64,000 nucleotides of DNA from the IMG/VR virus record IMGVR_UViG_3300034158_000001; one strand, written 5' to 3'. The translations under genes were made by a program, and so were the position numbers. The stretch comes from an uncultured virus (IMG/VR IMGVR_UViG_3300034158_000001) (lineage: Duplodnaviria > Heunggongvirae > Uroviricota > Caudoviricetes). The notes below the pieces were generated by a model. That model did not search any database. It saw only the letters and a program-made list of their open reading frames with translations, and was not told the DNA's origin. The first letter of the stretch is position 1. Each line of letters opens with the position of its first letter. This document shows positions 3,706-50,633 of the stretch, in pieces.

Positions 3706-4230
3706 TCAGCATAAATCTTCCTCCCTCAGTACATATACCGTTACTGTAAAACGTTCGTCGAAGACACTATCAACAATCTCAGCAATTGTATCCCAGTCGC
3801 CGCCGCCAAGGCCAGCCCTAATCTTAGGGAAACCTACTTTAAAATAGTTAGGCTGATACTGTGTAGCAGTTAGGATGTCATTCCGCATGTGGGTCAAAGC
3901 CTCTTCAAGCTTACCATAATCAGTGTACCCCTTTGCGTCATAGCCGTAGTTGTATTGACCATAGAGGTTGTAGATCAACCCACAACTTCCGTCATCGCGG
4001 TCGTGAACACCAACAGAGCAGTCACCAAACTTACCAACGTCGCCTTTTTCAGTTTCCTGATCAGCGTACCAAGCATCAGGAAACTCCATCTTGATGGCTT
4101 TAGCCACACCAGAGTTCATAGTGCAGAAGCAGTTTGCCTGATGCCCAATAACACTCACCTCGCCAGATTTGAGGGCTTCAGTCAAGTCACCAACTTTGTA
4201 CTTAATCTTATTGTTATTGTACTTAGTCAT
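3706..4230 (-). CDS. Macrodomain (Appr-1-p / ADP-ribose processing) protein
   Basis: GDL, HQANCFCTMNSGVAKAI and FPKIRAGLGGGDW motifs. Confidence 0.85.
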   Translation of the reverse strand: MTKYNNNKIKYKVGDLTEALKSGEVSVIGHQANCFCTMNSGVAKAIKMEFPDAWYADQETEKGDVGKFGDCSVGVHDRDDGSCGLIYNLYGQYNYGYDAKGYTDYGKLEEALTHMRNDILTATQYQPNYFKVGFPKIRAGLGGGDWDTIAEIVDSVFDERFTVTVYVLREEDLC

Positions 4231-4339
4231 ATTTAGCCATCTCCCGCTCGTGCCACTTTTCATGCACTTCATCTGCAAATGCAACGATGACACAGAAAAT
4301 GAATAAACCAAAAAGCAGTTCCATAAAACCTCCTTAGAA

Positions 4340-4363
4340 AAGAAGCCCCTCCGAAGAGGGGCG
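4340..4363 (-). terminator. Rho-independent terminator
   Basis: GCCCCTC/GAGGGGC hairpin (TTCG loop on the minus strand) plus U-tract. Confidence 0.75.
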
Positions 4364-4368
4364 ATACA

Positions 4369-6120
4369 TCATGCCGAACGGGTACGAATTTCATCCAGTG
4401 TTACACGGCTCAGGAAGACACCGTCACGGTAGAACACTTTTAGGGCGTTACCCTCTTCTTCTTCCCACTCTTTGGTCACATTATCGTCAAGCTCAAAACC
4501 AGCCTCAGAGTGCATAACATACAAACGACCTTTGGCAGACTTCTTCTTGCTGTCAGTCTTCGGGTCTTTGAAGATTGCCACTTCGTCACCATTGATGACA
4601 GAGTTGGTTGCCTTCACAGCAAAGCCAAAGGTGTCACGGGTGTTACACTGGTAAGTGTAACTACCAACCCCGAAGACAACGTTTGCAGCAGCAAAGCCCT
4701 TCTTGGACAAACGGTCCAGAATTTCCAGGGCACGCTTTGTGGTAATACTGTCACCATAAATTAGGCCAATGTGCGAGTCAAGCAGTTTGTGACCAGTTTC
4801 GGTGAGAGTCCCACCGAAAGTGTCATACAGAACCTCGATTGCGCCTTTTACTTCTGCTTCAGTGATTTCAACCTGAACATAGTCGTAAAAATCACAACCA
4901 CGCCAGTCATCGTAACCCTCATAGCTGATTTCGTAGTACTTACCGTCAACACGAACGTAGTCATAGCCAAGGTCATGATACTCACCACGATCACTGTTAT
5001 TCTCAAGTGCTTCCTGAGTGGTATCAACCACACTGAAACCACAGATCACTTTAACAGGATCACCAGAGTCTGGACGCACCACCAGTTTACCCGGTTGTGG
5101 GCCAAAGCCTTCACGTGCCATGATCACGTCTTTCAGGTATGGATACCCACGAGTCAGCATACCCCAGAAGTCGTATGTATCCGATACGTTAGAGACGATG
5201 CCGTTAGGCACAATCTCAGTGATCAGGACGTAAACGAACATCACTTCAGCGATCAGACGGGTATTTTCGTCGTTGTAAAGCATCGCAGAGTAAATCTTGT
5301 ACTGCTCGTCGTTCAAGAACTCATACTCGCCAGCTAACAGCTCACGCTCAATCGAGATGATGTTGTTCGAAGTCACAGCGTGCTCGGTTGCTGGAACACT
5401 AATACCAATCAAACCTGTTGCATCGTAGTAACGCTTGGCGTAGGTGATAGCTGGCAGGGTGTCAGTGCCGATAAACTGAGTCAAGTGACCAATACCGCTG
5501 CGTGCTGCGTCTTCGATACCGCTCATACCACGCATCGAGAAGTCATGGCACATTACCGAAACAGTGAAGGCATCGTAGCAGCCAGTCAGCTTCGTGTAGT
5601 GTTCACAAATCTTACGATACTCACGTGCAATCGTTGCGTTGGTGGCTGTCTTCCAAGTAGAGGCGGACAGCGGAGTCTCTTGGTAGTTCACCAGCCAGAA
5701 AAACTCAGTCAGGGTGTTGGTGATGGTCAGTACAGGGATACCCATCGGAACCAAACTACCTTCAGGCAGCGAACGGAACTCAAGTGGCAGATAACCCAGG
5801 TCATGCAGCGCTTCCATCTGACCTACAGTAGGCAGTTCACGGCCAAGATAACCAAGCAGGAAGTCTGCGTATTCTTCGATCACTTGAGCCTTTGGCTGAG
5901 TGAAGAAAGTGCGTACCCAGTTCTCGTTCAGCTCTTGTACAGCAGCTTGACCACCAACCCAAACCAACTTGCCATCGTAGAACGCTGTGCAGTTTCGGCG
6001 ATGAATTTTGTCAGTACGCGGGGTCAGGTTACTGCCAACTTGAGTGGTGCCTTTACGGTACATCTGCCCGTGGCCCAGCTTGTAACCATCAGTAGCCAAG
6101 TGCATCAGGAAGTTGCTCAT
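4369..6120 (-). CDS. Nicotinamide phosphoribosyltransferase-like enzyme (likely Namat of NARP1)
   Basis: TDGYKLGH, HDFSMRG, SVPATEH, VSDTYD, VVRPDSGDP, GDSIT and KKSAKG motifs. Confidence 0.9.
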   Translation of the reverse strand: MSNFLMHLATDGYKLGHGQMYRKGTTQVGSNLTPRTDKIHRRNCTAFYDGKLVWVGGQAAVQELNENWVRTFFTQPKAQVIEEYADFLLGYLGRELPTVGQMEALHDLGYLPLEFRSLPEGSLVPMGIPVLTITNTLTEFFWLVNYQETPLSASTWKTATNATIAREYRKICEHYTKLTGCYDAFTVSVMCHDFSMRGMSGIEDAARSGIGHLTQFIGTDTLPAITYAKRYYDATGLIGISVPATEHAVTSNNIISIERELLAGEYEFLNDEQYKIYSAMLYNDENTRLIAEVMFVYVLITEIVPNGIVSNVSDTYDFWGMLTRGYPYLKDVIMAREGFGPQPGKLVVRPDSGDPVKVICGFSVVDTTQEALENNSDRGEYHDLGYDYVRVDGKYYEISYEGYDDWRGCDFYDYVQVEITEAEVKGAIEVLYDTFGGTLTETGHKLLDSHIGLIYGDSITTKRALEILDRLSKKGFAAANVVFGVGSYTYQCNTRDTFGFAVKATNSVINGDEVAIFKDPKTDSKKKSAKGRLYVMHSEAGFELDDNVTKEWEEEEGNALKVFYRDGVFLSRVTLDEIRTRSA

Positions 6121-6290
6121 ACTTTCTCTCCATTAACAGCCGCTTTGATTAGGAATGCCAGGTCTTCTGCATTCTTGTGGTCTACGAAAATAGCGGTATC
6201 ACCATCAACCGTGATCTGCACATAGCTGTTGTCTCGATACACATCGATATCGCCTAGGTTAGCAACGTGCGTTGATAATTTAGAACTCAT
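6117..6290 (-). CDS. Small hypothetical protein (57 aa)
   Basis: Manual translation MSSKLSTHVANLGDIDVY...; AAGGAG RBS; ATGA overlap with next gene. Confidence 0.6.
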   Translation of the reverse strand: MSSKLSTHVANLGDIDVYRDNSYVQITVDGDTAIFVDHKNAEDLAFLIKAAVNGEKV

Positions 6291-6326
6291 TGTGTCTCTC
6301 CTTTGTGTCTCTGTTTGTGTGGGGCC

Positions 6327-6354
6327 ATCTTACCAGACTGGCCCTCCATGTCAA
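6327..6354 (-). promoter_or_regulatory. Promoter TTGACA-N16-TAAGAT
   Basis: Direct reading; the -10 and leader segment is shared with the promoter at 8208. Confidence 0.75.
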
Positions 6355-6512
6355 CGTTTATTTTGCATCGCAGTGGACCACATCATCTGATCAATACGAT
6401 CATTGTAATTGCGGTTAGAGATATAAAATGCAATCCAAGCCACTACCCAAGGAAAGAACAGGATGGATAGGATCAAGTGACCAATGTGATTTGTTCTTCG
6501 TTTAGTTAACAT
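6351..6512 (-). CDS. Small membrane protein (53 aa)
   Basis: MLTKRRTNHIGHLILSILFFPWVVAWIAFYI...; GGAGG RBS. Confidence 0.6.
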   Translation of the reverse strand: MLTKRRTNHIGHLILSILFFPWVVAWIAFYISNRNYNDRIDQMMWSTAMQNKR

Positions 6513-7320
6513 TGTTGCCTCCGCAGTAAAATTGTGGGTTCATCATTAGCGGGGCATCTGGTGGCAAGAAGCACTGTGGCTGTTGCATCACTACAGGTGC
6601 TGCTACCGCTGGTTGACGTTGTTGCATCAAGAGCTGGTTTTGCATGTCCAGTTTATCTTCGATACGCTGGTCAGTCTTAGCTTGTTCAATCTGTGCAGCA
6701 GTGGCCCCGGAACTCGCCCCATAGTGGTGAGGAGTAGTGATTGCGTTATACAGCATCATACCACCCACTGCTCCAGCCGCCCCATACAGGAAGCTACTTC
6801 CACCAGAGTTATACCCACCGTAACCATAACCACCATAACCCCGATTATATCCATTGTAACCTCCATACGAATTTCCGTAGTAATTGCGTTGAATTACCGT
6901 GGTGCGTGGGCTGCTGTACACCGAACGATTGGAGCTATACCCGACAGGACTACTAACCTTACGCACAGCGGGTCGGTAAATTGGTGCAGGTGCGGAGCTT
7001 ACAGACTTCTTACCAAACCAACCCGTATTAACTGTCGATGTAGGACGGCTAGACGGTACGCTTGCACTTGGACGGCTTACCGTCTGGGTTGGTGCAGGCT
7101 TGGAGAAACCAAGTGCCTTTAGGCCAGGGTTGCTGCTTGTGGAACGGCTCGGAGCGGACACCGCTGGAGCCGAGTACTGCTTTGGGGCAGAGTAGCTGCT
7201 CCGAGACGAAGAGCTGTAGCTCGACCGAGAGGACGAAGAAACTCGACTTGCAGCATCAGCCTCGACAACAATCACACCCATCATCAGGAAGCCCATAACA
7301 CCAGCGATAATCTTTTTCAT
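6502..7320 (-). CDS. Exported low-complexity S/R/Y/G-rich protein
   Basis: Signal peptide (ADA|A), Ser-rich and GY-rich tracts, GAAGAVGG hydrophobic segment, Q-rich tail. Confidence 0.7.
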   Translation of the reverse strand: MKKIIAGVMGFLMMGVIVVEADAASRVSSSSRSSYSSSSRSSYSAPKQYSAPAVSAPSRSTSSNPGLKALGFSKPAPTQTVSRPSASVPSSRPTSTVNTGWFGKKSVSSAPAPIYRPAVRKVSSPVGYSSNRSVYSSPRTTVIQRNYYGNSYGGYNGYNRGYGGYGYGGYNSGGSSFLYGAAGAVGGMMLYNAITTPHHYGASSGATAAQIEQAKTDQRIEDKLDMQNQLLMQQRQPAVAAPVVMQQPQCFLPPDAPLMMNPQFYCGGNNVN

Positions 7321-7329
7321 GTGTAATCC

Positions 7330-8178
7330 TCAGTATTTCAGAACAGTGAGTTTTGGGTTAAGCCCTTGCGGTAACGAGTCAGTAGTGTACACGTGATCAA
7401 ACACATCTGTCAACACCTCGACACCCTTAGAGAAGATACCGTGTGTGACGGCCAACTCAAGGTACTCAACATAGCTGATGCACTTCACCAACTCTACGAA
7501 TGTACGCCCGCCATCACAAATATCATCGAGTACCAAATACTTACCGTCTGGGTCGACATCACCAATTGGTGCCATCCCTGTAATCTTACCTGTCGAAAGC
7601 TCACGATGCTTCTGGAAGTACACAACCGCCTTAGCCCCAACAGCTTTTGCGAACTCTTCGGTCTTCTTAGCAGCACCAGCATCAGGGGCAATGATAGTCC
7701 ACTCGCTCCAGTCGTCTTTGATGCCTTTGAACGCAGTGATCTGGTCAACTACGAAGCATCGGTCCAATGCAGCTACGAGAACGGGGCTGTGAGGGTCTAC
7801 AACAGTCACTGTGGCGTAGTTCTGCGAGTTAATGAGCGTAGCCATTACCTTGGCACTCAAAGCCTCCCCAGGGTTGCATACGCGGTCCTGGCGTGCATAC
7901 GGAAAGTATGGAATGTTCAGGTCAAGGCGTGCATTTGGGTAGACACGACGCAAAGCGTCTGTCGCAAGAAACATTGCCATCAACTGGTCGCTGTTTTGAA
8001 TCTTAGCAACAAGATCAATGGTATCAACGTAGTTGGATTCAGTGTCCAGCCAAGAAAGAGAGCCAGTGTTGATATTCACACCAACCTCGCCACCAGGGAA
8101 GGTCATTGTGCTGACAGAAATCCGTTGGGTGCGGAAGCCATTTACTGTGTAGTAAAGATTTTCGTTAAACTCGGTCAT
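7330..8178 (-). CDS. prs: Ribose-phosphate pyrophosphokinase-like enzyme (likely Adps of NARP1)
   Basis: FPGGE, PYFPYARQDR, DPHS, APDAGA and VLDDICDGGRTF motifs. Confidence 0.9.
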   Translation of the reverse strand: MTEFNENLYYTVNGFRTQRISVSTMTFPGGEVGVNINTGSLSWLDTESNYVDTIDLVAKIQNSDQLMAMFLATDALRRVYPNARLDLNIPYFPYARQDRVCNPGEALSAKVMATLINSQNYATVTVVDPHSPVLVAALDRCFVVDQITAFKGIKDDWSEWTIIAPDAGAAKKTEEFAKAVGAKAVVYFQKHRELSTGKITGMAPIGDVDPDGKYLVLDDICDGGRTFVELVKCISYVEYLELAVTHGIFSKGVEVLTDVFDHVYTTDSLPQGLNPKLTVLKY

Positions 8179-16466: not shown

Positions 16467-16661
16467 TCAGGCTCCTAAAAGTTCAATATCGAAAAGTCGT
16501 TCACGTGTCTCAGGGTCACGTTCAGAGGGCATAATAAGTCCACTCCGCTGTCCAGTTTGTATCTCTCTAAGCAAATTTTTGTAGTGCTCTAAGACTTCTT
16601 TATCTTCTACACTCGCGTCTCTACGCAAATATCGTTGTGGCATTCTCAGTATAAGCAACAT
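16467..16661 (-). CDS. Hypothetical protein
   Basis: 64-aa operon ORF. Confidence 0.55.
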   Translation of the reverse strand: MLLILRMPQRYLRRDASVEDKEVLEHYKNLLREIQTGQRSGLIMPSERDPETRERLFDIELLGA

Positions 16662-17086
16662 TATTCACCTCCAATCTCTTCAATAGTCTGTTCTGCTTTT
16701 AGGGATTTCTTTGCCTGAGTTTTCTTCACAGGTTTAGATGCAGCATCCTCAGTAGGCTTCAGACGCATCTGGACGCTCTTGAAGCTGCGTTCATCGAAGA
16801 AGTGTGCACCGTATAAGTCAAACTCGTAACCAGCCTCCACGAAGCTCTCAAGCAGTTTGAGGAAAGGCAACGCCTCGTAGTGCTCTACCCTTCCATTTGA
16901 GTCGGCAGGAATGTCTACCAAGGTTCCGCGAGGTTCTTTAAAGAGTCGTACCTGATGATGGTATGCACCAAAAAATGGCACACCCTCGTTTGTGTTACGG
17001 ACTGCGTATCCTTCAGATAATTTTTCACAAACTGTATTGACGAAACCGATAGGGTTGTGGTCAACTACATCAACAAATTCTACCAC
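16661..17086 (-). CDS. Hypothetical protein
   Basis: GTG start after AAGGAG, downstream of the promoter at 17119-17146. Confidence 0.6.
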   Translation of the reverse strand: MVEFVDVVDHNPIGFVNTVCEKLSEGYAVRNTNEGVPFFGAYHHQVRLFKEPRGTLVDIPADSNGRVEHYEALPFLKLLESFVEAGYEFDLYGAHFFDERSFKSVQMRLKPTEDAASKPVKKTQAKKSLKAEQTIEEIGGE

Positions 17087-17118
17087 CTTGTTCTCCTTGT
17101 GTTCTTGAATAAGTTCTG

Positions 17119-17146
17119 ATAGTATCACGGTATCTCCAATTGTCAA
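17119..17146 (-). promoter_or_regulatory. Promoter TTGACA-N16-TACTAT (leftward)
   Basis: Direct reading; one half of a divergent pair. Confidence 0.7.
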
Positions 17147-17159
17147 GCTATGATTTATA

Positions 17160-17188
17160 TTGACTTTCGGAGTTTGTGGTGGTAGGAT
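17160..17188 (+). promoter_or_regulatory. Promoter TTGACT-N17-TAGGAT driving ncRNA copy 1
   Basis: Direct reading; predicted TSS ~17195 coincides with the first RNA stem. Confidence 0.7.
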
Positions 17189-17195
17189 GTAAAAG

Positions 17196-17481
17196 CTGAT
17201 GGAGAGAAATGTCGAATGCACTCACCGGCCATCAGGATCAAGCCTATGAAGAGGAAGCTACTGGGCAAGCTGAGTTCTAATCTGATTAAAGCGTAGCGAC
17301 GACACCGAAAGGTGGAATGATCAGAATCTGACGCACCCGCGTCTCCAGCCTGTGCTGGCCGAATGCAATCTCAATCTACGAGGTGCAGGGAAGATAGAAC
17401 CAAGGAAGGTCTAGGCGACTAATAATCGTATGGCTTTCCTTGGGACAGTTCTATCTTCCGATACAAAACTCATCTACGAGA
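17196..17481 (+). ncRNA. Putative large structured ncRNA, copy 1 (family unknown to me)
   Basis: Homologous to 50040-50323, with conserved single-stranded motifs and compensatory stem changes. Confidence 0.75.
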
Positions 17482-17577
17482 TAGATCAAGAGCATATAAC
17501 AAACACATACAACCATACTTAACATACTAATACTTAAGGAGATTGTGTGAAATAATACTTTACAGAAGGAACATAAT

Positions 17578-18349: not shown

Positions 18350-18439
18350 AGCGGATTGGCAGAGAGGCTTAATGCAACGCTTTGCTAAAGCGTCGGCCCA
18401 GAAATGGGTCCGTAGGTTCGAATCCTACATCCGCTACCA
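18350..18439 (+). tRNA. tRNA-Ser(GCT)
   Basis: ACGCT tt GCT aa AGCGT arm; long variable arm; CCA. Confidence 0.9.
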
Positions 18440-18561
18440 GAATGATCGTGTCGCTCACGGTATGACAAACACTAGACAGTGAGGGTTCTGCTGTCTCTTC
18501 ATGGAGTGGTATTGAGGCCATTCATTGGGGTAAGAGTCCCCACAGGCAACCTCTAAATTTT

Positions 18562-18655
18562 GGGTAGTAATGCAGCGGGGTTGGTCCTGCGACTAGTCTT
18601 GAAAACTAGGTTCTGGCGTGAGCCGGATGGGGTTCGACTCCTCTGCTGCCCGCCA
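18562..18655 (+). tRNA. tRNA-Ser(TGA), 8/4 fold
   Basis: CTAGT ct TGA aa ACTAG arm; 8-bp acceptor, 4-bp T stem; G73; CCA. Confidence 0.85.
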
Positions 18656-18673
18656 AACATTGAAGGAGATACA

Positions 18674-19231
18674 ATGATTTATCTTAAGTGGTTTGTACTG
18701 GCTATCTTGGATTTACTGCTGACACTCACTGTATTGGTTGCCGCACCTATCATTGCACTCTTCACAAGGGAACAGGCTTATGGAAAGCCTGAGTATACTT
18801 GGGGCTGGCTGTGGGGCACATACGACAACCCACCTCAAGGTGACGAAGGTTATGTAGCTAAGCGTGCAATGTTCTTAAACGCGACAACAGGGATCAAAGG
18901 TTATGTGAACCGTGTAATGTGGATGTTCAGAAACCCTCTTTATGGGTTCTCTCGACGTGCAGCATTGTCTTACAGAGACACATACACAATCGTAACAACT
19001 GGAAATCCTGATATCAGCGACAAGTACAAGATTCCAGGAAGTATGACAACAAAACTGTATGACGGCAAGAAGCTTATCGGCTTTGAGTACTACCTTATCA
19101 AGCCTTGGTCTGAGACAAAAGACCTTCGTATGAGACTCGGATGGAAGATCACAACAGAGAAGTTTGCCTTAAACGGTTTCGCTCCTCTGGTTGTTACTGC
19201 CAATCCGCTTGATGGCTACGGTAATGACTGA
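18674..19231 (+). CDS. Hypothetical membrane-anchored protein within the tRNA cluster
   Basis: AAGGAG RBS, N-terminal TM helix, W..TYDNP..GD and WMFRNP motifs. Confidence 0.75.
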   Translation: MIYLKWFVLAILDLLLTLTVLVAAPIIALFTREQAYGKPEYTWGWLWGTYDNPPQGDEGYVAKRAMFLNATTGIKGYVNRVMWMFRNPLYGFSRRAALSYRDTYTIVTTGNPDISDKYKIPGSMTTKLYDGKKLIGFEYYLIKPWSETKDLRMRLGWKITTEKFALNGFAPLVVTANPLDGYGND

Positions 19232-19336
19232 CAGAATACTCCTGAAGCTTCAAGCGCCTTGGGAATATGTCGTATAACCAACATACGACTTGACGCTCAG
19301 GAGACAGCGTGCTATAAATGTCTCCCACGAATTAAG

Positions 19337-19411
19337 GGGTCTTGATTGTGATAGCAGCATGCTGGCCTCCAAAGCCATGCGGACTGGGAGCGTAACCTAG
19401 ATGGCCCGCCA
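19337..19411 (+). tRNA. tRNA-Trp(CCA), atypical T-loop
   Basis: TGGC ct CCA aa GCCA arm; CTGGG agcgtaa CCTAG T-arm; GCCA end. Confidence 0.7.
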
Positions 19412-19417
19412 AACAAT

Positions 19418-19492
19418 GCTGGTATGGTGTATTGGATGCACAAGGGTCTTCTAAGCCCTCAAGGGTTGGTTCGAATCCAACTACCAGCACCA
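19418..19492 (+). tRNA. tRNA-Arg(TCT)
   Basis: AGGGT ct TCT aa GCCCT arm; canonical T-arm; CCA. Confidence 0.9.
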
Positions 19493-19582
19493 TATGTGCA
19501 AATAGTTTTAAATAAACGCTTGACAGATTAGATTTGTCGTGTTTTAATACTCATATGAATCAAACACAAAGGAGAGATACAG

Positions 19583-19705
19583 ATGGCAAAGTATTACGAT
19601 GCAACTAAAGAACACGCTCCGGTTGACAAGACACGCTTGAAAGACAGCAAAGGTCGTCACCCAAACAAGAATAAACAGGGCAAGCCACCAAGCGTGGTAA
19701 GCTAA
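19583..19705 (+). CDS. Small basic protein (40 aa)
   Basis: MAKYYDATKEHAPVDKTRLKDSKGRHPNKNKQG...; AAGGAG RBS; TTGACA promoter at 19520. Confidence 0.6.
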   Translation: MAKYYDATKEHAPVDKTRLKDSKGRHPNKNKQGKPPSVVS

Positions 19706-19747
19706 ATGAGACAAGAAATTGATCTTGGCTTCGTATAAAGATTTAAT

Positions 19748-19824
19748 GCACCACTCGTCTACGAGGTTTAGGATATGAGGTTTTCACCCTCATGAACGGG
19801 GTTCGAGTCCCCGGTGGTGTACCA
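19748..19824 (+). tRNA. tRNA-Glu(TTC)
   Basis: TGAGG tt TTC ac CCTCA arm; CCA. Confidence 0.9.
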
Positions 19825-19939
19825 CATTTGAATGATAAATACGTCCAGCTAATCGGCGGAAGGAACAACTCAACAGCCCATTGAAATAGATGGTATTGAG
19901 CCTAAGATGAAAGTCACCGATATTCATTCAAAGCTACAT

Positions 19940-20015
19940 GGCTTATGTTTCCTCTGGGAAGGAAGGCACACTGTCTATGTGTCAGTTGAGGGTTCGAATC
20001 CCTTATAGGTCGCCA
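19940..20015 (+). tRNA. tRNA-Asp(GTC)
   Basis: GCACA ct GTC ta TGTGT arm; G73; CCA. Confidence 0.85.
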
Positions 20016-20019
20016 ATTT

Positions 20020-20093
20020 GCCCTTTTAGTATATTGGTATTACTCGGCCTTTGTAACGCTGAAAACGCAGTTCGATTCTGTGATGGGGCACCA
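20020..20093 (+). tRNA. tRNA-Thr(TGT)
   Basis: Loop tt TGT aa; GCC.../...GGC acceptor; CCA. Confidence 0.8.
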
Positions 20094-20192
20094 AATTTGA
20101 CAGCACCAACGCCTTATGGTATTGTCCGTCACTTAGCTAGGCTTGGCTTATCAGGTAGAAGCCCGTACCTCCAAAACCTGATATAAATTTTT

Positions 20193-20267
20193 AGTTGCTT
20201 GGCCGATTGGATTAGGCAAAGGTCTACGAAGCCTTTTAGAGTGGTTCGATCCCACTAGTGACTACCA
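20193..20267 (+). tRNA. tRNA-Arg(ACG)
   Basis: AAGGT ct ACG aa GCCTT arm; CCA. Confidence 0.88.
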
Positions 20268-20273
20268 AACAAT

Positions 20274-20347
20274 TGCTCGTTAGCATAGTGGTAATGCAGT
20301 CGGCTGATAACCGTCTTAGGGGTGTTCAATTCACTCACGAGCAACCA
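20274..20347 (+). tRNA. tRNA-Ile(GAT)
   Basis: CGG ct GAT aa CCG arm; TGCTCGT/ACGAGCA acceptor; CCA. Confidence 0.85.
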
Positions 20348-20478
20348 AATTCTGCGTAAACCAGAAACAAGATTCCTTTTACGGCTTTTAGAAGGGATCG
20401 GGAAACAAAGGGGTAAGAACTTTAGCGAGTTCGAATGTCTCAGACTAAGCCGTTGAAAGACAACGCGAATACTACAGG

Positions 20479-20554
20479 TGCGGTCAGGTGAACTGGTGGA
20501 CACAGCAGCCTCATAAGCTGAATAAGGTGAGTTCGATTCTCACGTCCGCAACCA
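20479..20554 (+). tRNA. tRNA with CAT anticodon (Met or Ile2)
   Basis: CAGC ct CAT aa GCTG arm; CCA. Confidence 0.85.
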
Positions 20555-20623
20555 AACACCGTGCTCCCCACGGGTACAGCCAGATAGAGTGTGCTGTATA
20601 AATATAGTCTCTATCAGAATTAT

Positions 20624-20700
20624 AGGTAATGATCTCACCGGGCGTGGGTCGCTGGCTGTTAACCAGCAGATGGGAGGTTCGAGTCCTCTATTACCTGCCA
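20624..20700 (+). tRNA. tRNA-Asn(GTT)
   Basis: GCTGG ct GTT aa CCAGC arm; G73; CCA; unusual D-arm. Confidence 0.85.
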
Positions 20701-20706
20701 AACAAA

Positions 20707-20795
20707 GCGTCGTGATTTATGGGGACTGGGATTCCCGCTGGGCTGTAAACCCGGTGTCCAAGACTGCGTGGTTCGATTCCGACCATGACGCACCA
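20707..20795 (+). tRNA. tRNA-Tyr(GTA), atypical
   Basis: CTGGG ct GTA aa CCCGG arm; long variable arm; CCA. Confidence 0.8.
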
Positions 20796-20816
20796 ATTAA
20801 GATGTAGAAGATTTAA

Positions 20817-20890
20817 CTAGATGAAGCGTTACGGTAGCGTACTGGCTTTGGAAGCCTGTGGCGGTGGTTCGACTCCACCCATCTAGACCA
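20817..20890 (+). tRNA. tRNA-Pro(TGG)
   Basis: Loop tt TGG aa; CTAGATG/CATCTAG acceptor; CCA. Confidence 0.88.
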
Positions 20891-20894
20891 ATTT

Positions 20895-20968
20895 GGGCTT
20901 GTGGTAAAACGGGAATACGCGGTCTTTGCAAGTCCGAGTTCAGGGTTCGACTCCCTGCTGGTCCACCA
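20895..20968 (+). tRNA. tRNA-Ala(TGC)
   Basis: Loop tt TGC aa; G3:U70 identity pair; CCA. Confidence 0.85.
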
Positions 20969-20985
20969 AATAAGGAGTGCTTAAT

Positions 20986-21141
20986 ATGAGAGTCCGAGTA
21001 AAACAAACCAAGAAGAAGTTTGCTATGATGCCCTGCGGGTGTTGTGAGAGGGTTTATTACAAGGAGAAGAGTCTGGATAAGCAGACCCTCAAAGAAGCAC
21101 TTGAAGAAATAAGCAATACGCTTGACTGTGACGTCGTGTAG
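20986..21141 (+). CDS. Small protein (51 aa) overlapping the 5' end of tRNA-His
   Basis: TAAGGAG RBS; MRVRVKQTKKKFAMMPCGCCERVYY... Confidence 0.55.
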   Translation: MRVRVKQTKKKFAMMPCGCCERVYYKEKSLDKQTLKEALEEISNTLDCDVV

Positions 21142-21201
21142 TCTGGGACTACCTTCCGGTTGTGACCCGGTTGTTAGAGATCGAAACTCTGCGTCACCCC
21201 A
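21128..21201 (+). tRNA. tRNA-His(GTG), atypical
   Basis: CCGG tt GTG ac CCGG arm; C73; CCA; no encoded G-1. Confidence 0.75.
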
Positions 21202-21207
21202 AATTAT

Positions 21208-21292
21208 GGGCCAGTGGTGGAACTGGTATACACAGCAGTCTTAGAAACTGCCGCCGAAAGGATTGAGGGATCGTGACCCTCTTGGCCCACCA
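21208..21292 (+). tRNA. tRNA-Leu(TAG)
   Basis: GCAGT ct TAG aa ACTGC arm; variable arm; CCA. Confidence 0.9.
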
Positions 21293-21299
21293 AATTATG

Positions 21300-21374
21300 T
21301 CCTTCTTGCCTGAGCGGCTAGGGTGCTGATTGCAAACCAGTAATAGATCGGTTCAACTCCGATAGAAGGCTCCA
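21300..21374 (+). tRNA. tRNA-Cys(GCA)
   Basis: Loop tt GCA aa; U73; CCA. Confidence 0.8.
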
Positions 21375-21379
21375 AACAT

Positions 21380-21455
21380 GCGTGATTCGTATAGAGGTCT
21401 AATACTCTCGGCTTCCACCCGAGTAACCAGGGTTCGACTCCCTGATCCCGCACCA
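21380..21455 (+). tRNA. tRNA-Gly(TCC)
   Basis: CTCGG ct TCC ac CCGAG arm; CCA. Confidence 0.88.
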
Positions 21456-21540
21456 ATTTTGAAGATGGTGGTTAAATCCCAACCCCAAGCGGTTAAATGC
21501 ACCGGCTTGCGATTCAGTGAGAGTATCTTCAATCTCTTTT

Positions 21541-21616
21541 GCATTCTAAGCTAACTAGGTAGAAGCACTGGCTTGAAACCCCAGATGACGTGGATCGATA
21601 CCACGAGAATGCACCA
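21541..21616 (+). tRNA. tRNA-Phe(GAA)
   Basis: Loop tt GAA ac; GCATTCT/AGAATGC acceptor; CCA. Confidence 0.85.
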
Positions 21617-48604: not shown

Positions 48605-48793
48605 TTACTTCCAGCGGCTTACATAAGTCTGCTTGCCACAACTTGGGCAGGTGATGCGATACCAACTATCCCCTCCACCCCCATAATCTCTGGAGAAGCC
48701 TTCTGTGATGTCATGATATCCGTACTCAAGTTTTGCTTGACAGGTCTGACATACACACTGTTTAGTTGCAGCTTGTTCAACTACACGTACCAT
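48605..48793 (-). CDS. Small zinc-ribbon protein
   Basis: CQTC...CPSC motif. Confidence 0.65.
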   Translation of the reverse strand: MVRVVEQAATKQCVCQTCQAKLEYGYHDITEGFSRDYGGGGDSWYRITCPSCGKQTYVSRWK

Positions 48794-49941
48794 TATTCCT
48801 CCTTCAGCAAGTATGCGTTGCTGATAGCTTTGAACGAGAAGTCACGCTTAGTGCTCTTGTAGACGGAGCCTTCACGGAACTTACCTTTGACGCCACTTGG
48901 ACCTTCAGCACGAAGCAGAAGCTCAGCAACAGTCGGAGCTTTGAGCACGCCAGTGTAGTTGACTGGGACGTGTTTAACACCCTGGTCAGTACAGAATTTG
49001 ATGCGTTCAGCAGTAAGCATGTAGCGCTGTTCATCAATCAGGAAAACGTCGTAGCAGAAGAATGTGTTATTGTCCAGACCTTCAAAGTTCTTCTGGATAG
49101 ACGGACCACACATTTCACCCTGAATGGCGATGTTACGGCCATCACGGCGAATAGCTTCAATCAGTCCAGCTTCTGTCACCATCTGAGTGAAGGCATTGTC
49201 GTCCTTCTTGATCACACGCTCCCACTTGCAGCGATGTACAGCCATGCCGCGATTCCACCACTGATCAAACCAGCTACGAATAGTAGAAACCAGAGAACGT
49301 TTTTCGTCCTCCATCCGAAAGCCCACGTTACGGCTAGCCACACCAGCCACCCCGTCACGAACAAACGCAGTGAGAGAGCTTCCGTCCAGCTTAAAAGATT
49401 CTTCAAATTCTTCTCCATCGGCTACAGCCTTCAAGTATAGGTTAGTGATGTTCTGTACGCGAGTCTGATCAGTCTTTGGTACAAACTTAGGGAAACCCAA
49501 TGCAGACTTACCAGTCTTGACGCCAGTGCCACCAGTGTTATTCATGCTGGCTTCTTCAGCCTTCTCATACTTGACAACACCCAAGAAGTCTGTCATGTCA
49601 TAGCCAACCTCTGCGTTAAGGCCAGTTACAGACAATGGGATCAAGTAGCCTTGAGAAAGTTGCTTACGCAGCTTCATGGTTTTTACACGAGCGTGGGTAC
49701 GTCCATCTACGTTGTGGAGCAGTTTAGAACTCCAGTTGGCTGCATCAGCGAAATAAGGACGCTCTGTGTCTAGCAGAGAATCTACCTCAAAATATACAGC
49801 TTTGGTGAGTGCGGGCTCGTACAAACCCTTCTGCACGACCACCTGCCAGCCGCCAATGAGAGCCAGCTCAATGCGGTCAGCACCTTCAATAGGAAGTAGT
49901 TGATCGATCAGTACGATACGAGCGAGGGAACGTTCAGCCAT
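48793..49941 (-). CDS. RNA ligase, Rnl2/DRB0094 family
   Basis: N-terminal OB module (PIEGADRIE..GWQVVV), KTDQTRVQN, KLDGSS, QGE, REGSVYK and FKAISN.YL motifs. Confidence 0.88.
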   Translation of the reverse strand: MAERSLARIVLIDQLLPIEGADRIELALIGGWQVVVQKGLYEPALTKAVYFEVDSLLDTERPYFADAANWSSKLLHNVDGRTHARVKTMKLRKQLSQGYLIPLSVTGLNAEVGYDMTDFLGVVKYEKAEEASMNNTGGTGVKTGKSALGFPKFVPKTDQTRVQNITNLYLKAVADGEEFEESFKLDGSSLTAFVRDGVAGVASRNVGFRMEDEKRSLVSTIRSWFDQWWNRGMAVHRCKWERVIKKDDNAFTQMVTEAGLIEAIRRDGRNIAIQGEMCGPSIQKNFEGLDNNTFFCYDVFLIDEQRYMLTAERIKFCTDQGVKHVPVNYTGVLKAPTVAELLLRAEGPSGVKGKFREGSVYKSTKRDFSFKAISNAYLLKEE

Positions 49942-49972
49942 TTTTAAATCTCCTTGTGTTTTGATGTGGTGG

Positions 49973-50032
49973 AGTCTACAGGATGTTGGAATCGTGTCAA
50001 CCACTTGACAGAAAAACTTTTCATGGTAATCT
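49973..50032. promoter_or_regulatory. Back-to-back promoters: leftward TTGACA-N16-TAGACT and rightward TTGACA-N16-TAATCT
   Basis: Direct reading; rightward TSS ~50039 coincides with the first stem of ncRNA copy 2. Confidence 0.7.
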
Positions 50033-50039
50033 GCACACA

Positions 50040-50323
50040 TCGCAGGAGAGACATGTCGGGCGAAAGCCTCCCTCACCGGCCTGCGGGAGTACACCCCATG
50101 AAGAGGATGCTGTAGGGGTCACTGAGGTTGAATGAGAGAACAGTGCAGCGATGACCTCTATAGAGGGAAGGCTCTCAATCTATAGCGTCCCATGACGCCG
50201 ACTTGCGATCTCAATTTTGGATAGCAAAGGATAAACCTCAAGGCATGTCGAGGCGATTCAGTTCGTATGGCAAGCCTTGGGATAGGTTTATCTCGACAAT
50301 ACGAAACTCATTTTGGATAGGAG
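50040..50323 (+). ncRNA. Putative large structured ncRNA, copy 2
   Basis: Homologous to 17196-17481, with compensatory changes. Confidence 0.75.
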
Positions 50324-50330
50324 CAAAGAT

Positions 50331-50633
50331 ATGTGTCAAGTGGTAAATAGGAACCACATGTCTGTGAACATGAATGATCCTGACATTGTGTATATAGGAA
50401 GGGGCAGCATCTGGGGCAATCCTTTCCACATAGGTGGCTCTGGCAGACGTACTCGTGAACAGGTGATAGAAATGTACAGAAAATATCTGTGGGAGCGCCT
50501 ACGTGTTGGGTATTTCACACTTGATATGCTGAAAGCTCTTGACGGGAAGCGACTTGCTTGCTATTGTGCTCCTAAGCAATGTCATGGCGACATTATAAAA
50601 CGAGCCGTCCGGTGGGCGAAGGAGCAACAGTGA
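50331..50633 (+). CDS. DUF4326-like protein
   Basis: VYIGRGSIWGNPF, L.GKRLACYCAPKQCHGD motifs. Confidence 0.8.
   Translation: MCQVVNRNHMSVNMNDPDIVYIGRGSIWGNPFHIGGSGRRTREQVIEMYRKYLWERLRVGYFTLDMLKALDGKRLACYCAPKQCHGDIIKRAVRWAKEQQ

What the first reader, a model, noticed from the sequence alone, without database searches (positions are those of the whole stretch)
17196..17481. Large pseudoknotted ncRNA present in two diverged copies (copy 1)
Seen: this intergenic stretch and 50040-50323 share the same ordered motifs: GGAGAGAnATGTCG, CTCACCGGCC, ATGAAGAGGA, CTGAG, AGCGAyGA, AATCT, GCCGA, TGCrATCTCAAT, CAAGG, AGGCGA, TCGTATGGC, CCTTGGGA, ATACrAAACTCAT. The stems differ in sequence but still pair (copy 1 vs copy 2): CTGATGG/CCATCAG vs CGCAGG/CCTGCG; AGG/CCT vs GGG/CCC; GCTAC/GTAGC vs GCTGT/GCAGC; CACC-gaaa-GGTG vs CCTC-tata-GAGG; pseudoknot TCTGATTA/TGATCAGA vs TGAGAG/CTCTCA; CCAGC/GCTGG vs GCGTC/GACGC; GGAAGATAGAAC/GTTCTATCTTCC vs GATAAACCT/AGGTTTATC; CAAGGA/TCCTTG vs CAAGGC/GCCTTG. 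Each copy begins about 7 nt after a sigma70-type -10 box, and each sits at one of the two divergent strand switches in the window. Inference: selection acts on the RNA fold, so this is a functional ~285-nt RNA that I cannot assign to a known class. It could be a ribozyme, a protein scaffold or sponge, an antitermination leader for the long late and replication operons, or an R-loop primer at replication origins.
Basis: partly seen in the sequence, partly recalled or inferred. Interest (0 to 1): 0.92.

Follow-up and report, generated by a model that had tools for sequence, protein, structure and literature searches.

The report
Uncatalogued paired leader RNA of phages
This Pseudomonas phage starts each of its two long gene blocks with a diverged copy of a large, intricately folded RNA that is in no catalogue and that repeats about 25 of its own letters on either side of its last hairpin; what it does is still open.

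Summary
Positions 17196-17486 and 50040-50323 (+ strand) are the only two copies in the window of a ~290-nt RNA. It has 11 helices including a pseudoknot: 96.2% of cells paired, 38 of 53 pairs with compensatory changes, slid controls 36-43%. Rfam 15 has no match. The family occurs in 181 phage records, mostly twice per genome, but not in PAK_P3. It is unannotated even in PAK_P4, whose record draws on RNA-seq. This scan noted the same family earlier on two other genomes.

The repeat differs between lineages (31 core variants in 54 elements) but matches within each element. It has no complementary partner in the RNA.

Function is not shown. My leading guess (0.3) is a cis-acting leader that keeps host RNA polymerase transcribing two long operons, put-like in logic only. 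An RNA-DNA pairing model like ColE1 RNA II explains the repeat best, but the repeat's C-rich, G-poor make-up argues against it. I rate this a new RNA class of high interest.

The parts
17119..17146 (-). Leftward sigma70-like promoter (TTGACA-16-TACTAT), back to back with the promoter of copy 1. It heads the leftward block (PhoH, Clp-like, dCMP deaminase, DNA ligase, NAPRTase and others).
   Evidence: Consensus scan, 10 of 12 matches; gene content from Pfam. Consensus match only.
17160..17188 (+). Promoter of copy 1: TTGACT-17-TAGGAT with TG before the -10 box. It ends 7 nt before helix P1.
   Evidence: Of 115 distinct stretches carrying the search pattern, 58 have a -35/-10 match. By my own tally against, 9 of the 57 without one are true elements, so 58 of 67 true elements have it. 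In 55 of the 58 it lies 13-18 nt before the GAGAnATGTC motif, and 42 of 58 have TGn.
17195..17328 (+). Copy 1, 5' domain: P1 (17197-17202/17229-17234), P1a, P2, pseudoknot P3 (17257-17261/17293-17297), P4 (17281-17286/17320-17325) and P5. It carries the invariant GAGAnAUGUC, CUCACCG, GAAGAG and GGAAnG.
   Evidence: cmsearch 130.5 bits, E 1.4e-32; helix coordinates; covariation.
17330..17358 (+). Copy 1, variable hairpin P6 (GACGC/GCGTC) and conserved-position hairpin P7 (17345-17349/17354-17358).
   Evidence: P7: all 5 pairs show compensatory change. P6 is present in only part of the family (alignment).
17359..17382 (+). Copy 1, repeat 1 (CCGAATGCAATCTCA + core ATCTACGAG at 17374-17382), directly after P7.
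17389..17459 (+). Copy 1, 3' hairpin domain P8-P11 (P8 17391-17400/17448-17457), with conserved GUCUUAGGC...GUAUGGC...CCUUGGGAC.
17458..17486 (+). Copy 1, repeat 2 (CCGATACAAAACTC + core ATCTACGAG at 17472-17480) and the end of the conserved element.
   Evidence: The profile match ends at 17486.
17487..17577 (+). Copy 1 trailer: an A/C-rich, G-poor spacer, then AAGGAG (17536-17541) with a start, one codon and a stop (GTG AAA TAA, 17547-17555), then the first gene (ATG 17578, 65 aa, Cys-rich).
   Evidence: Read. The same layout appears in relatives. SD + start + one codon + stop occurs in 13 distinct stretches.
50005..50032 (+). Promoter of copy 2: TTGACA-16-TAATCT preceded by TGG (extended -10).
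   Evidence: Read; not flagged by the consensus scan. KIL3 annotates promoters at the same place.
50039..50180 (+). Copy 2, 5' domain (P1 50041-50046/50080-50085; P3 50109-50113/50145-50149; P4 50133-50138/50172-50177).
   Evidence: cmsearch 133.4 bits, E 2.4e-33.
50185..50224 (+). Copy 2, P7 (50185-50189/50194-50198) and repeat 1 (core ATTTTGGATAG at 50214-50224).
50228..50294 (+). Copy 2, 3' hairpin domain P8-P11.
50295..50333 (+). Copy 2, repeat 2 (core 50310-50320). It runs straight into AGGAG (50319-50323) and the ATG (50331) of a DUF4326 gene.
   Evidence: DUF4326 E 1.4e-22.

Best explanation
What it is (shown): an uncatalogued family of ~290-nt pseudoknotted RNAs. Each is read as the first ~290 nt of the transcript from a sigma70-type promoter. 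One copy heads the tRNA, packaging and virion block. A diverged paralogue, on the same strand 32.8 kb away, heads the DUF4326 and replication block. The layout is a 5' domain (P1-P5 with pseudoknot P3), hairpin P7, a ~25-nt single-stranded tail, the P8-P11 hairpin domain, and then the same tail again.

How it most likely works (inferred, not shown): it acts in cis on the transcription complex that makes it. By this reading it is a leader that keeps host RNA polymerase elongating through a long and partly untranslated operon, by resisting pausing, intrinsic terminators and Rho. That is the logic of the two put RNAs of phage HK022, but with a fold four times larger and unrelated. The two C-rich, G-poor tails that flank the hairpin would be the part that meets polymerase, Rho or the DNA. 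This model does not explain why the two tails must be identical.
For: The fold is real and is read on the + strand. A promoter sits at a fixed distance, so the RNA starts at P1. There are exactly two copies in the window. In 8 contigs that hold both, the copies lie on the same strand. Seven are 32-36 kb apart; in the PAK_P1 record they are 61 kb apart, or 32 kb counted round the record's ends.

The two paralogues have diverged in sequence but not in fold, as expected for an element that works on its own transcript. The terminator scan found no + strand terminator-like site after either copy in the window. In relatives the repeat is followed by different things: an A/C-rich spacer, a ribosome site or a fresh promoter. 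That fits an autonomous module rather than an operator for one gene.

Copy 1 precedes a 3.3-kb untranslated array of 10 tRNAs and then terminase and portal genes. Copy 2 precedes about 5 kb of small genes and then primase-helicase and DNA polymerase. The tails are C-rich and G-poor (C 0.28-0.30, G 0.14-0.17, n = 52), the make-up of Rho-binding RNA (recalled knowledge).

Precedent: HK022 carries two put RNAs behind its two early promoters, and they act without proteins over at least 10 kb (PMC9378689, abstract and introduction passages read).
Against: No experiment bears on this, and no RNA data could be laid on the element. put is ~70 nt with two stem-loops, and there is no likeness of sequence or fold. 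The sister genus Nankokuvirus (PAK_P3) has the same genome plan without the element. In some lineages a new sigma70 promoter follows the element at once, so downstream genes do not depend on polymerases that passed through it. The identity-constrained repeat has no role in any known antitermination mechanism.
Confidence: 0.3

Rival explanations
1. RNA-DNA pairing, in the manner of the ColE1 RNA II pre-primer. The fold presents repeat 1 so that it pairs with the template DNA strand at repeat 2 about 100 nt downstream. This would seed a persistent hybrid that primes DNA replication at the two strand switches, or tethers the RNA to its locus.
For: The repeat differs between lineages but matches within each element (31 core variants in 54 elements). 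Local alignment z is at least 3 in 21 of 24 sequences. At positions -8 to -6, which were not used as the anchor, identity is 0.89-0.97 within elements and 0.40-0.54 between them. No complementary partner exists in the RNA or its flanks, so the template strand is the only complement to both copies. The exact core is 8-13 nt in 51 of 54 elements, about the size of a transcription hybrid. ColE1 uses a folded ~550-nt host-polymerase transcript whose folding decides whether a persistent hybrid forms (PMC5043065, section read). That an upstream G-run in RNA II matches a run near the origin is recalled, not seen. The phage has a primase-helicase, a family A polymerase and a DNA ligase. The cumulative GC skew minimum lies at copy 1.
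Against: The repeat is C-rich and G-poor, with purines at 0.46-0.50, the opposite of sequences that form stable RNA-DNA hybrids. The two repeats differ by fixed 1-nt shifts and indels. In copy 2 and its kin, repeat 2 runs into the ribosome site of the first gene, so the transcript goes on as mRNA. GC skew also follows gene direction, so it does not identify an origin. A leftward fork from copy 2 would meet the late operon head-on.
Confidence: 0.17
2. Sensor or switch (riboswitch-like). The conserved 5' domain binds a metabolite or host factor, and the repeats are the two alternative partners of one strand, which decides expression of what follows.
For: Invariant junction nucleotides surrounded by covarying stems, plus a pseudoknot, are typical of aptamers. 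The element lies in a 5' leader. Direct repeats are expected when two segments compete for one partner. In type B, repeat 2 abuts the ribosome site.
Against: No segment complementary to the repeat was found, either by covariation or per sequence. A candidate CUGAG/CUCA contact does not covary: lineages with CUGA or CCCA in both repeats keep CUGAG. What follows repeat 2 is not constant.
Confidence: 0.1
3. A stand-alone RNA acting in trans after processing. It could be a ribozyme, a scaffold or sponge for a host factor, or a self-assembling RNA like the phage-borne ROOL and GOLLD RNAs.
For: Its size and complexity are those of ribozymes and RNP RNAs. Copy 1 lies beside a tRNA array, as ROOL and GOLLD often do (recalled; the paper 10.1101/2024.12.08.627333 was seen only in a search listing). 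Some lineages place a new promoter directly behind the element.
Against: The two copies in one genome have diverged strongly, which a shared trans target would not favour. No terminator or obvious 3' end exists. There is no Rfam match to any ribozyme or large RNA.
Confidence: 0.15
4. The repeat has no function of its own. It is kept identical by slippage or gene conversion across the hairpin that brings the two copies together, or it marks repeated insertion of the P8-P11 hairpin as a cassette.
For: Direct repeats flanking a hairpin are the classic substrate for replication slippage (established knowledge). The linker after repeat 1 is hypervariable in P. aeruginosa phages and can hold a third copy of the core. 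L133 and L115 carry a remnant of a foreign repeat-2-type tail between repeat 1 and P8.
Against: The two repeats keep fixed, position-specific differences across all lineages (AUCUCAA against AAACUCA), which conversion would erase. The repeat is kept in distant members whose hairpin interior has been replaced (L128/L119, L100, L136). None of the 54 full-length elements lacks a hairpin between the two repeats. Among distant members, two (L065, L094) show no positional repeat.
Confidence: 0.15

Closest known systems
HK022 putL / putR RNAs (cis-acting processive antitermination; PMC9378689)
   Same: Two diverged copies per phage genome, each just behind a promoter heading a long operon, transcribed by host RNA polymerase, with no dedicated protein nearby.
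   Different: put is ~70 nt with two stem-loops. This RNA is ~290 nt with 11 helices, a pseudoknot and a flanking direct repeat. There is no sequence or structure likeness, and no activity has been tested.
ColE1 RNA II pre-primer (PMC5043065)
   Same: A large folded transcript made by host polymerase. An upstream RNA segment with the same sense as a downstream stretch could pair with the template strand.
   Different: ColE1's hybrid-forming run is G-rich (recalled); here the repeat is C-rich and G-poor. No antisense regulator like RNA I was found. The transcript continues into genes. No origin has been mapped.
   Same: Similar sequence blocks flank a structured RNA inside a phage leader transcript, and the matched blocks differ between related phages.
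   Different: There, loops of the structured RNA are complementary to the flanking blocks. Here no complement to the repeat exists in the hairpin domain or elsewhere.
Lambda nutR / tR1 region (rutA - boxB hairpin - rutB; recalled)
   Same: Two C-rich single-stranded stretches flank a hairpin in an early leader that decides Rho termination or antitermination.
   Different: rutA and rutB are not identical repeats. boxB is a 15-nt hairpin bound by N protein. No N-like gene or boxA was identified here.
ROOL / GOLLD large phage-associated RNAs (Rfam families)
   Same: Large, ornate RNAs of unknown function carried by phages, often next to tRNA genes.
   Different: No Rfam match. They are 2-3 times larger and are not promoter-proximal leaders present in two copies.

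Membership tests
Any Rfam 15 family (4227 models) | Score at or above the family's gathering threshold | tested here: not met
   Across the whole window there are 10 matches, all tRNA and none in the element. At E up to 10, copy 1 gives 3 chance-level snoRNA matches (best 18.4 bits against a threshold of 40) and copy 2 gives 0. Eleven relatives' loci give 0 matches at E up to 1.
HK022 put RNA | ~70-nt RNA with two stem-loops | tested here: not met
   The element is ~290 nt with 11 helices. put features are from PMC9378689.
HK022 put RNA | Two copies behind the phage's early promoters, acting in cis | tested here: inconclusive
   The placement matches. Cis action is not testable in silico.
HK022 put RNA | Binds the beta' zinc-binding domain and suppresses pausing and termination | not testable with these tools
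   Needs in vitro transcription or reporter assays.
ColE1-type RNA II pre-primer | Upstream RNA segment with the same sense as a downstream stretch near the origin | tested here: met
   The ~25-nt repeat has an exact core of 6-13 nt across the 54 elements; in 3 of them the script's longest match was not the positional repeat.
ColE1-type RNA II pre-primer | Hybrid-prone (G-rich RNA) sequence at the pairing site | tested here: not met
   G 0.14-0.17, C 0.28-0.30, purines 0.46-0.50.
ColE1-type RNA II pre-primer | A replication origin lies at the 3' end of the RNA | not testable with these tools
   The GC skew turn at copy 1 is confounded by gene direction. No read-depth data from infected cells are available.
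P1 c4 / P4 CI type leader RNA | Loops of the structured RNA are complementary to the flanking repeated blocks | tested here: not met
   No complementary run of 4 or more covarying columns and no helix involving the repeat columns. Per-sequence searches found only scattered 6-8-nt chance matches.
Riboswitch | Conserved aptamer plus an expression platform with mutually exclusive pairings | tested here: inconclusive
   Aptamer-like conservation is present. No alternative pairing partner was found.
Protein-coding gene | A conserved open reading frame | tested here: not met
   No + strand ORF of 40 aa or more lies in copy 1. The short frames in copy 2 are not conserved, because indels shift the frame between copies.

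The most novel reading that the evidence does not exclude
The RNA carries a copy of the ~25 letters that polymerase will transcribe about 100 nt later, held next to them by the intervening hairpin, and works by homology rather than complementarity. Repeat 1 would re-pair with the template strand at repeat 2 to make a self-addressed R-loop or primer. Alternatively, the 8-13-nt RNA-DNA hybrid would shift between the two identical sites, giving transcripts that skip or reiterate the hairpin domain. Either would be a new principle of nascent-RNA control in bacteria and their viruses.
Probability: 0.17. Interest if true: 0.95.

Novelty: categorically new. Interest (0 to 1): 0.82.

Why it matters
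Large, intricately folded bacterial and phage RNAs are rare, and several have turned out to be ribozymes, guide RNAs or new kinds of machines. This one is well suited to study. It occurs in at least 181 sequenced phages, including model and therapy-candidate Pseudomonas phages (PAK_P1, PAK_P4, JG004, PaoP5, phiPsa374, the KIL phages). It has two natural paralogues per genome and heads the replication and virion operons.

The identity-constrained repeat gives a direct genetic test: break one repeat, then restore identity. That test would separate homology-based mechanisms from all others. If the RNA controls elongation or replication start, it is a missing piece in how these phages, which rely on host polymerase, run their programme. 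It could also serve as a portable regulatory part.

Tried and rejected
**Rfam.** Nothing at gathering or permissive thresholds.

**Expression data.**
- No RNA holder was listed among the sequencing runs.
- The four runs I laid were contigs only. They showed no joints and no informative ends; one wastewater contig of a relative simply diverges after 17484.
- The window's own assembly is not held.

**Literature.**
- The PAK_P3 and PAK_P4 RNA-seq papers and the ONT-cappable-seq paper (PMC4933390, PMC5563952, PMC10914365; passages found by term search) describe other small RNAs, not this element.
- PAK_P3 lacks the element.
- A Hi-C preprint, a catalogue of viral structured RNAs (PMC10690425) and a genome-language-model preprint do not mention it in the passages searched.
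- I did not open their supplements, which may list it anonymously.

**Partner for the repeat.** I looked for reverse complements in the window and flanks, for G-U-tolerant matches, for covariation against every alignment column, and for third direct copies. I found none beyond chance.

**Long-range CUGAG/CUCA helix.** Rejected, because it does not covary.

**Tail after repeat 2 mimicking the P8 5' strand.** This is seen in the two window copies but not generally.

**Predicted accessibility of the repeats.** Unconstrained folding was uninformative: 0.43 and 0.52 unpaired, against 0.40 overall.

**Translational bypass.** The repeat spacing is 96-120 nt in 51 of 54 elements. It is often not a multiple of three, and no conserved frame exists.

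**Mini-CRISPR array.** Rejected, because here the repeats vary and the "spacer" is conserved.

**Protein partners.** There is no reverse transcriptase, TnpB/IscB or Cas-like gene among the 56 window proteins scanned.

**Antisense promoters.** Promoter-like sites downstream of both copies are not conserved in relatives.

**A/B subtype split on a tree.** Support is weak (72/91), and the labels came from the sequences themselves.
Full report
**The observation**

A profile built from relatives finds only these two places in the 64-kb window: 17183-17486 (E 9.3e-78) and 50027-50321 (E 7.8e-62). A covariance model of the 5' half (R1, 142 positions, built from 35 diverse sequences) also finds only two: 17195-17328 (130.5 bits) and 50039-50180 (133.4 bits).

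**The fold**

I aligned 24 diverse homologues (A3).
- RNAalifold predicted 48 pairs, 33 of them with at least one compensatory double change.
- My full model has 53 pairs in 11 helices, including a pseudoknot (P3, GCUAC/GUAGC in copy 1). On it, 96.2% of 1266 cells form standard pairs, against 76.5% in column shuffles.
- 38 pairs change on both sides, and 0 of 500 shuffles reach the observed values on four of five measures.
- Sliding the 3' partners by 1-3 columns drops pairing to 36.0-42.9%.
- At four positions the commonest pair is G-U (18, 17, 22 and 24 of 24 sequences). These pair only on the + strand, so the + strand is the folded strand.
The other seven stand.
- The region is not coding. 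No + strand ORF of 40 aa or more lies in copy 1, and indels shift the frame between copies.

**Not a known family**

Rfam 15 gives only 10 tRNAs in the window at gathering thresholds. At E up to 10, copy 1 gives three chance-level snoRNA matches (best 18.4 bits against a threshold of 40) and copy 2 gives nothing. Eleven loci of close and distant relatives give nothing at E up to 1.

I searched the papers on related phages by term. The PAK_P3 RNA-seq paper (PMC4933390), the PAK_P4 paper (PMC5563952) and the ONT-cappable-seq paper (PMC10914365) describe other small RNAs. The PAK_P4 GenBank record, whose ncRNA and promoter annotation draws on that RNA-seq work, shows only a predicted promoter and an empty gap at copy a, and nothing at all at copy b. 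Model R1 hits both gaps, at 121.7 bits each. I did not open the supplements of these papers.

This scan had already noted the same family on two other genomes (e1-5891918 and e1-6072350). I treated those notes as leads only. I had already seen the repeat described below, before reading them.

**Distribution**

- BLAST of copy 1 finds 181 phage records and 336 places: 180 Pseudomonas phages and one Otagovirus listed under Pectobacterium.
- Of the 60 records sampled evenly down the ranking, most hold two places.
- Genera include Pakpunavirus (PAK_P1, PAK_P4, JG004, PaoP5), Otagovirus (phiPsa374; PPSC2 is the nearest relative of the window at 94.3%) and Flaumdravirus (KIL1-5), plus unclassified P. 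putida, P. fluorescens and P. protegens phages.
- PAK_P3 (Nankokuvirus) lacks the element: the best nhmmer E is 4.6, and there is no cmsearch hit at E up to 1.
- A motif scan of IMG/VR gave 28 stretches. Twenty were confirmed by the profile and 8 were chance.
- The same kind of scan gave 13 stretches in 185,579 species genomes. Only 1 was confirmed (L052, a 27.9-kb contig binned as Thaumarchaeota, probably a phage contig).
- It also gave 82 stretches in metagenomes. Of the 95 loci from both scans, 42 passed nhmmer at E up to 1e-5.
- I then gave R1 61 of those loci: the ones without a strong, full-length nhmmer match, including 12 with weak or partial matches. It scored 13 at E up to 0.01, and L119, L117 and L069 among them were new.
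- In 8 contigs that hold both copies, they lie on the same strand. Seven are 32-36 kb apart; in the PAK_P1 record they are 61 kb apart, or 32 kb counted round the record's ends. In the window they are 32.8 kb apart.

**Placement**

Copy 1 follows TTGACT-17-TAGGAT (17160-17188, with TG before the -10 box). This promoter stands back to back with a leftward TTGACA-16-TACTAT. Copy 2 follows TTGACA-16-TAATCT with TGn, read; the scan did not flag it.

Of 115 distinct stretches carrying the search motif, 58 have a -35/-10 match. In 55 of those 58 it lies 13-18 nt before GAGAnATGTC (32 at 15 nt), which puts the start of the RNA at the first base of P1. TGn occurs in 42 of 58. By my own tally, the 57 stretches without a match are 48 chance motif matches and 9 true elements.

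Pfam annotation gives the context:
- Left of copy 1, on the - strand: PhoH, a Clp-like protease, dCMP deaminase, DNA ligase, NAPRTase-family and Prs-like proteins.
- Right of copy 1: small genes, ten tRNAs (18350-21613), terminase (22200) and portal.
- Left of copy 2: an RNA ligase, divergently transcribed.
- Right of copy 2: DUF4326, small genes, primase-helicase (55229) and a family A polymerase (57155).

**The repeat**

The stretch directly after P7 recurs directly after the 3' strand of P8. The spacing is 96-120 nt in 51 of the 54 elements.
- In copy 1 the two versions are CCGAAUGCAAUCUCA-AUCUACGAG and CCGAUACAAAACUC-AUCUACGAG.
- In copy 2 the core is AUUUUGGAUAG.
- Across 54 distinct elements there are 31 different cores. 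The longest exact repeat is 6-13 nt long: 11 nt in 15 elements, 9 in 13, 8 in 12, 10 in 5, 12 in 4, 13 in 2, 7 in 2 and 6 in 1. In 3 elements (L027, L002, L043) the repeat is imperfect and the script picked another match.
- Local alignment of the two tails scores z of at least 3 against shuffles in 21 of 24 sequences (range 1.4-8.7).
- Positions 0 to +7 are identical by construction, because I anchored on the match. Positions -8 to -6 were not anchored. There, identity is 0.95, 0.97 and 0.89 within an element against 0.54, 0.40 and 0.51 between elements (37 distinct repeat pairs).
- Even the conserved CUCA changes in both repeats together, to CUGA or CCCA, in some lineages.
- The two repeats also keep fixed differences in all lineages (AUCUCAA against AAACUCA).
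- Distant members whose middle or hairpin interior has been replaced still have the layout repeat, hairpin, repeat. L128/L119 have a 12-nt repeat and L100 has 9 nt; in L136, L124 and L090 I read repeats of 9, 11 and 8 nt from the printed sequences. Two distant members (L065, L094) show no positional repeat.

**No pairing partner for the repeat**

I searched the window and all flanks for reverse complements, allowed G-U pairs, tested every alignment column for covarying complementarity with the repeat, and looked for third copies. Only chance-level 6-9-mers turned up.

A tempting CUGAG/CUCA helix appears in minimum-energy folds. It does not covary with the concerted CUCA changes. Apart from an antisense transcript, for which I found no conserved promoter, the only complement to both repeats is therefore the template DNA strand. 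Identity rather than complementarity points to a homology-based process, or to no function at all.

**What follows the repeat**

This varies between elements.
- In copy-1-type elements, a ~60-nt A/C-rich, G-poor spacer comes first. A strong ribosome site with a start, one codon and a stop follows (13 distinct stretches; GTG AAA TAA at 17547-17555 here), and then a small Cys-rich gene.
- In copy-2-type elements, repeat 2 runs into the ribosome site of a DUF4326 gene.
- In P. aeruginosa copy b and in L126, a fresh TTGACA-17-TAnnnT promoter follows within a few bases.

The element therefore behaves as an autonomous module that ends at repeat 2. In the window, the terminator scan found no + strand terminator-like site after either copy.

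**Weighing the mechanisms**

The homology logic fits a ColE1 RNA II-like model, in which the folding of a long host-polymerase transcript decides whether a persistent RNA-DNA hybrid forms (PMC5043065). Several facts speak against a stable hybrid or primer role:
- The repeats are C-rich and G-poor (G 0.17 and 0.14, C 0.30 and 0.28, purines 0.46 and 0.50, n = 52).
- The two repeats differ in register.
- In type B the transcript plainly continues as mRNA.
- The GC-skew turn at copy 1 is confounded by gene direction.

The placement fits a cis-acting elongation or antitermination leader, as with HK022 putL and putR (PMC9378689). There are two diverged copies, each at the very start of a 25-30-kb operon read by host polymerase, and one operon begins with 3.3 kb of untranslated tRNA genes. 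The C-rich tails around a hairpin recall the rutA-boxB-rutB layout of lambda (recalled). Against this, the RNA is unrelated to put and four times its size, a sister genus does without it, and the model leaves the repeat unexplained.

I therefore commit to the cis-acting leader at 0.3 and put the RNA-DNA pairing model at 0.17. The sensor model, the trans-acting RNA or ribozyme model and the by-product view of the repeat each get 0.10-0.15. The by-product view concerns the repeat only, so it can hold together with any of the others. None of these steps is shown. What is shown is the fold, the family, the placement and the repeat.

**Expression evidence**

No public run on record as RNA holds the stretch, and the runs I laid are contigs without joints or informative ends. 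This is a blank, not evidence either way.

**Verdict**

This is a real, widespread and uncatalogued RNA class with an unusual identity-constrained repeat. I rate it categorically new as a family, with the mechanism open.

Noticed in passing
window 17536-17555, and the same place in relatives (e.g. L012, L022, L021, L033): A strong ribosome site (AAGGAG) is followed by a start codon, a single codon and a stop (GTG AAA TAA here; ATG GAA TAA, ATG AAA TAA and ATG ACA TAA in relatives). It lies about 20 nt before the first real gene after copy-1-type elements, and is conserved in 13 distinct stretches. It may be a start-stop or ribosome-standby device.
   Followed up: partly
L133 and L115 (metagenome contigs), between repeat 1 and helix P8: A ~20-nt insertion, GAAACTCATACGAGATAGTG, looks like the repeat-2 tail of a different element type (that of window copy 1). 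The hairpin domain therefore seems to have been exchanged between elements, or duplicated in tandem and then trimmed.
   Followed up: partly
L003, L005, L018, L026 against L009, L019 (P. aeruginosa phage copy b): The linker after repeat 1 is hypervariable between near-identical phages. Insertions of 12-18 nt (spacing 110-116 against 98 nt) contain an AT-rich palindrome (TACATATGTA) and a third copy of the repeat core (ATCTGCAT).
   Followed up: no
window 3706-8178, - strand: A Macro-domain protein (weak, E 2.4e-4), a 583-aa NAPRTase-family protein (E 2.9e-32) and a Prs-like phosphoribosyl-pyrophosphokinase N-domain protein lie close together. This resembles the phage NAD+ reconstitution pathways that counter NAD-depleting defences (recalled, not tested).
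   Followed up: no
window 18350-21613: An array of 10 tRNA genes (Rfam) lies directly downstream of copy 1 and upstream of terminase.
   Followed up: no
L052 (genome contigs, JAHFOH010000003.1, 27.9 kb): A contig binned as a Thaumarchaeota MAG carries a full element with promoter and repeat, followed by the Cys-rich small gene. It is very likely a phage contig that was mis-binned.
   Followed up: no
window 17524-17551 and 50310-50339, - strand: Promoter-like matches (9 and 10 of 12) point back into each element from downstream. In copy 2 the -10 box overlaps repeat 2. They are not conserved in relatives, so they are probably chance.
   Followed up: partly
L043 (Kremar) and L002 (XD2): These elements lack the P6/P7 hairpins. 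Kremar's, which sits in the copy-2 position, groups with copy-1-type 5' domains on the tree, so one paralogue may have replaced the other in some phages.
   Followed up: no
window 16661-17221 (-) and 48793-50094 (-); PPSC2 orf165: ORF callers extend the divergent upstream genes, or call small ORFs, across the promoter and the start of the RNA. Several GenBank records annotate 'hypothetical protein' over the element.
   Followed up: no
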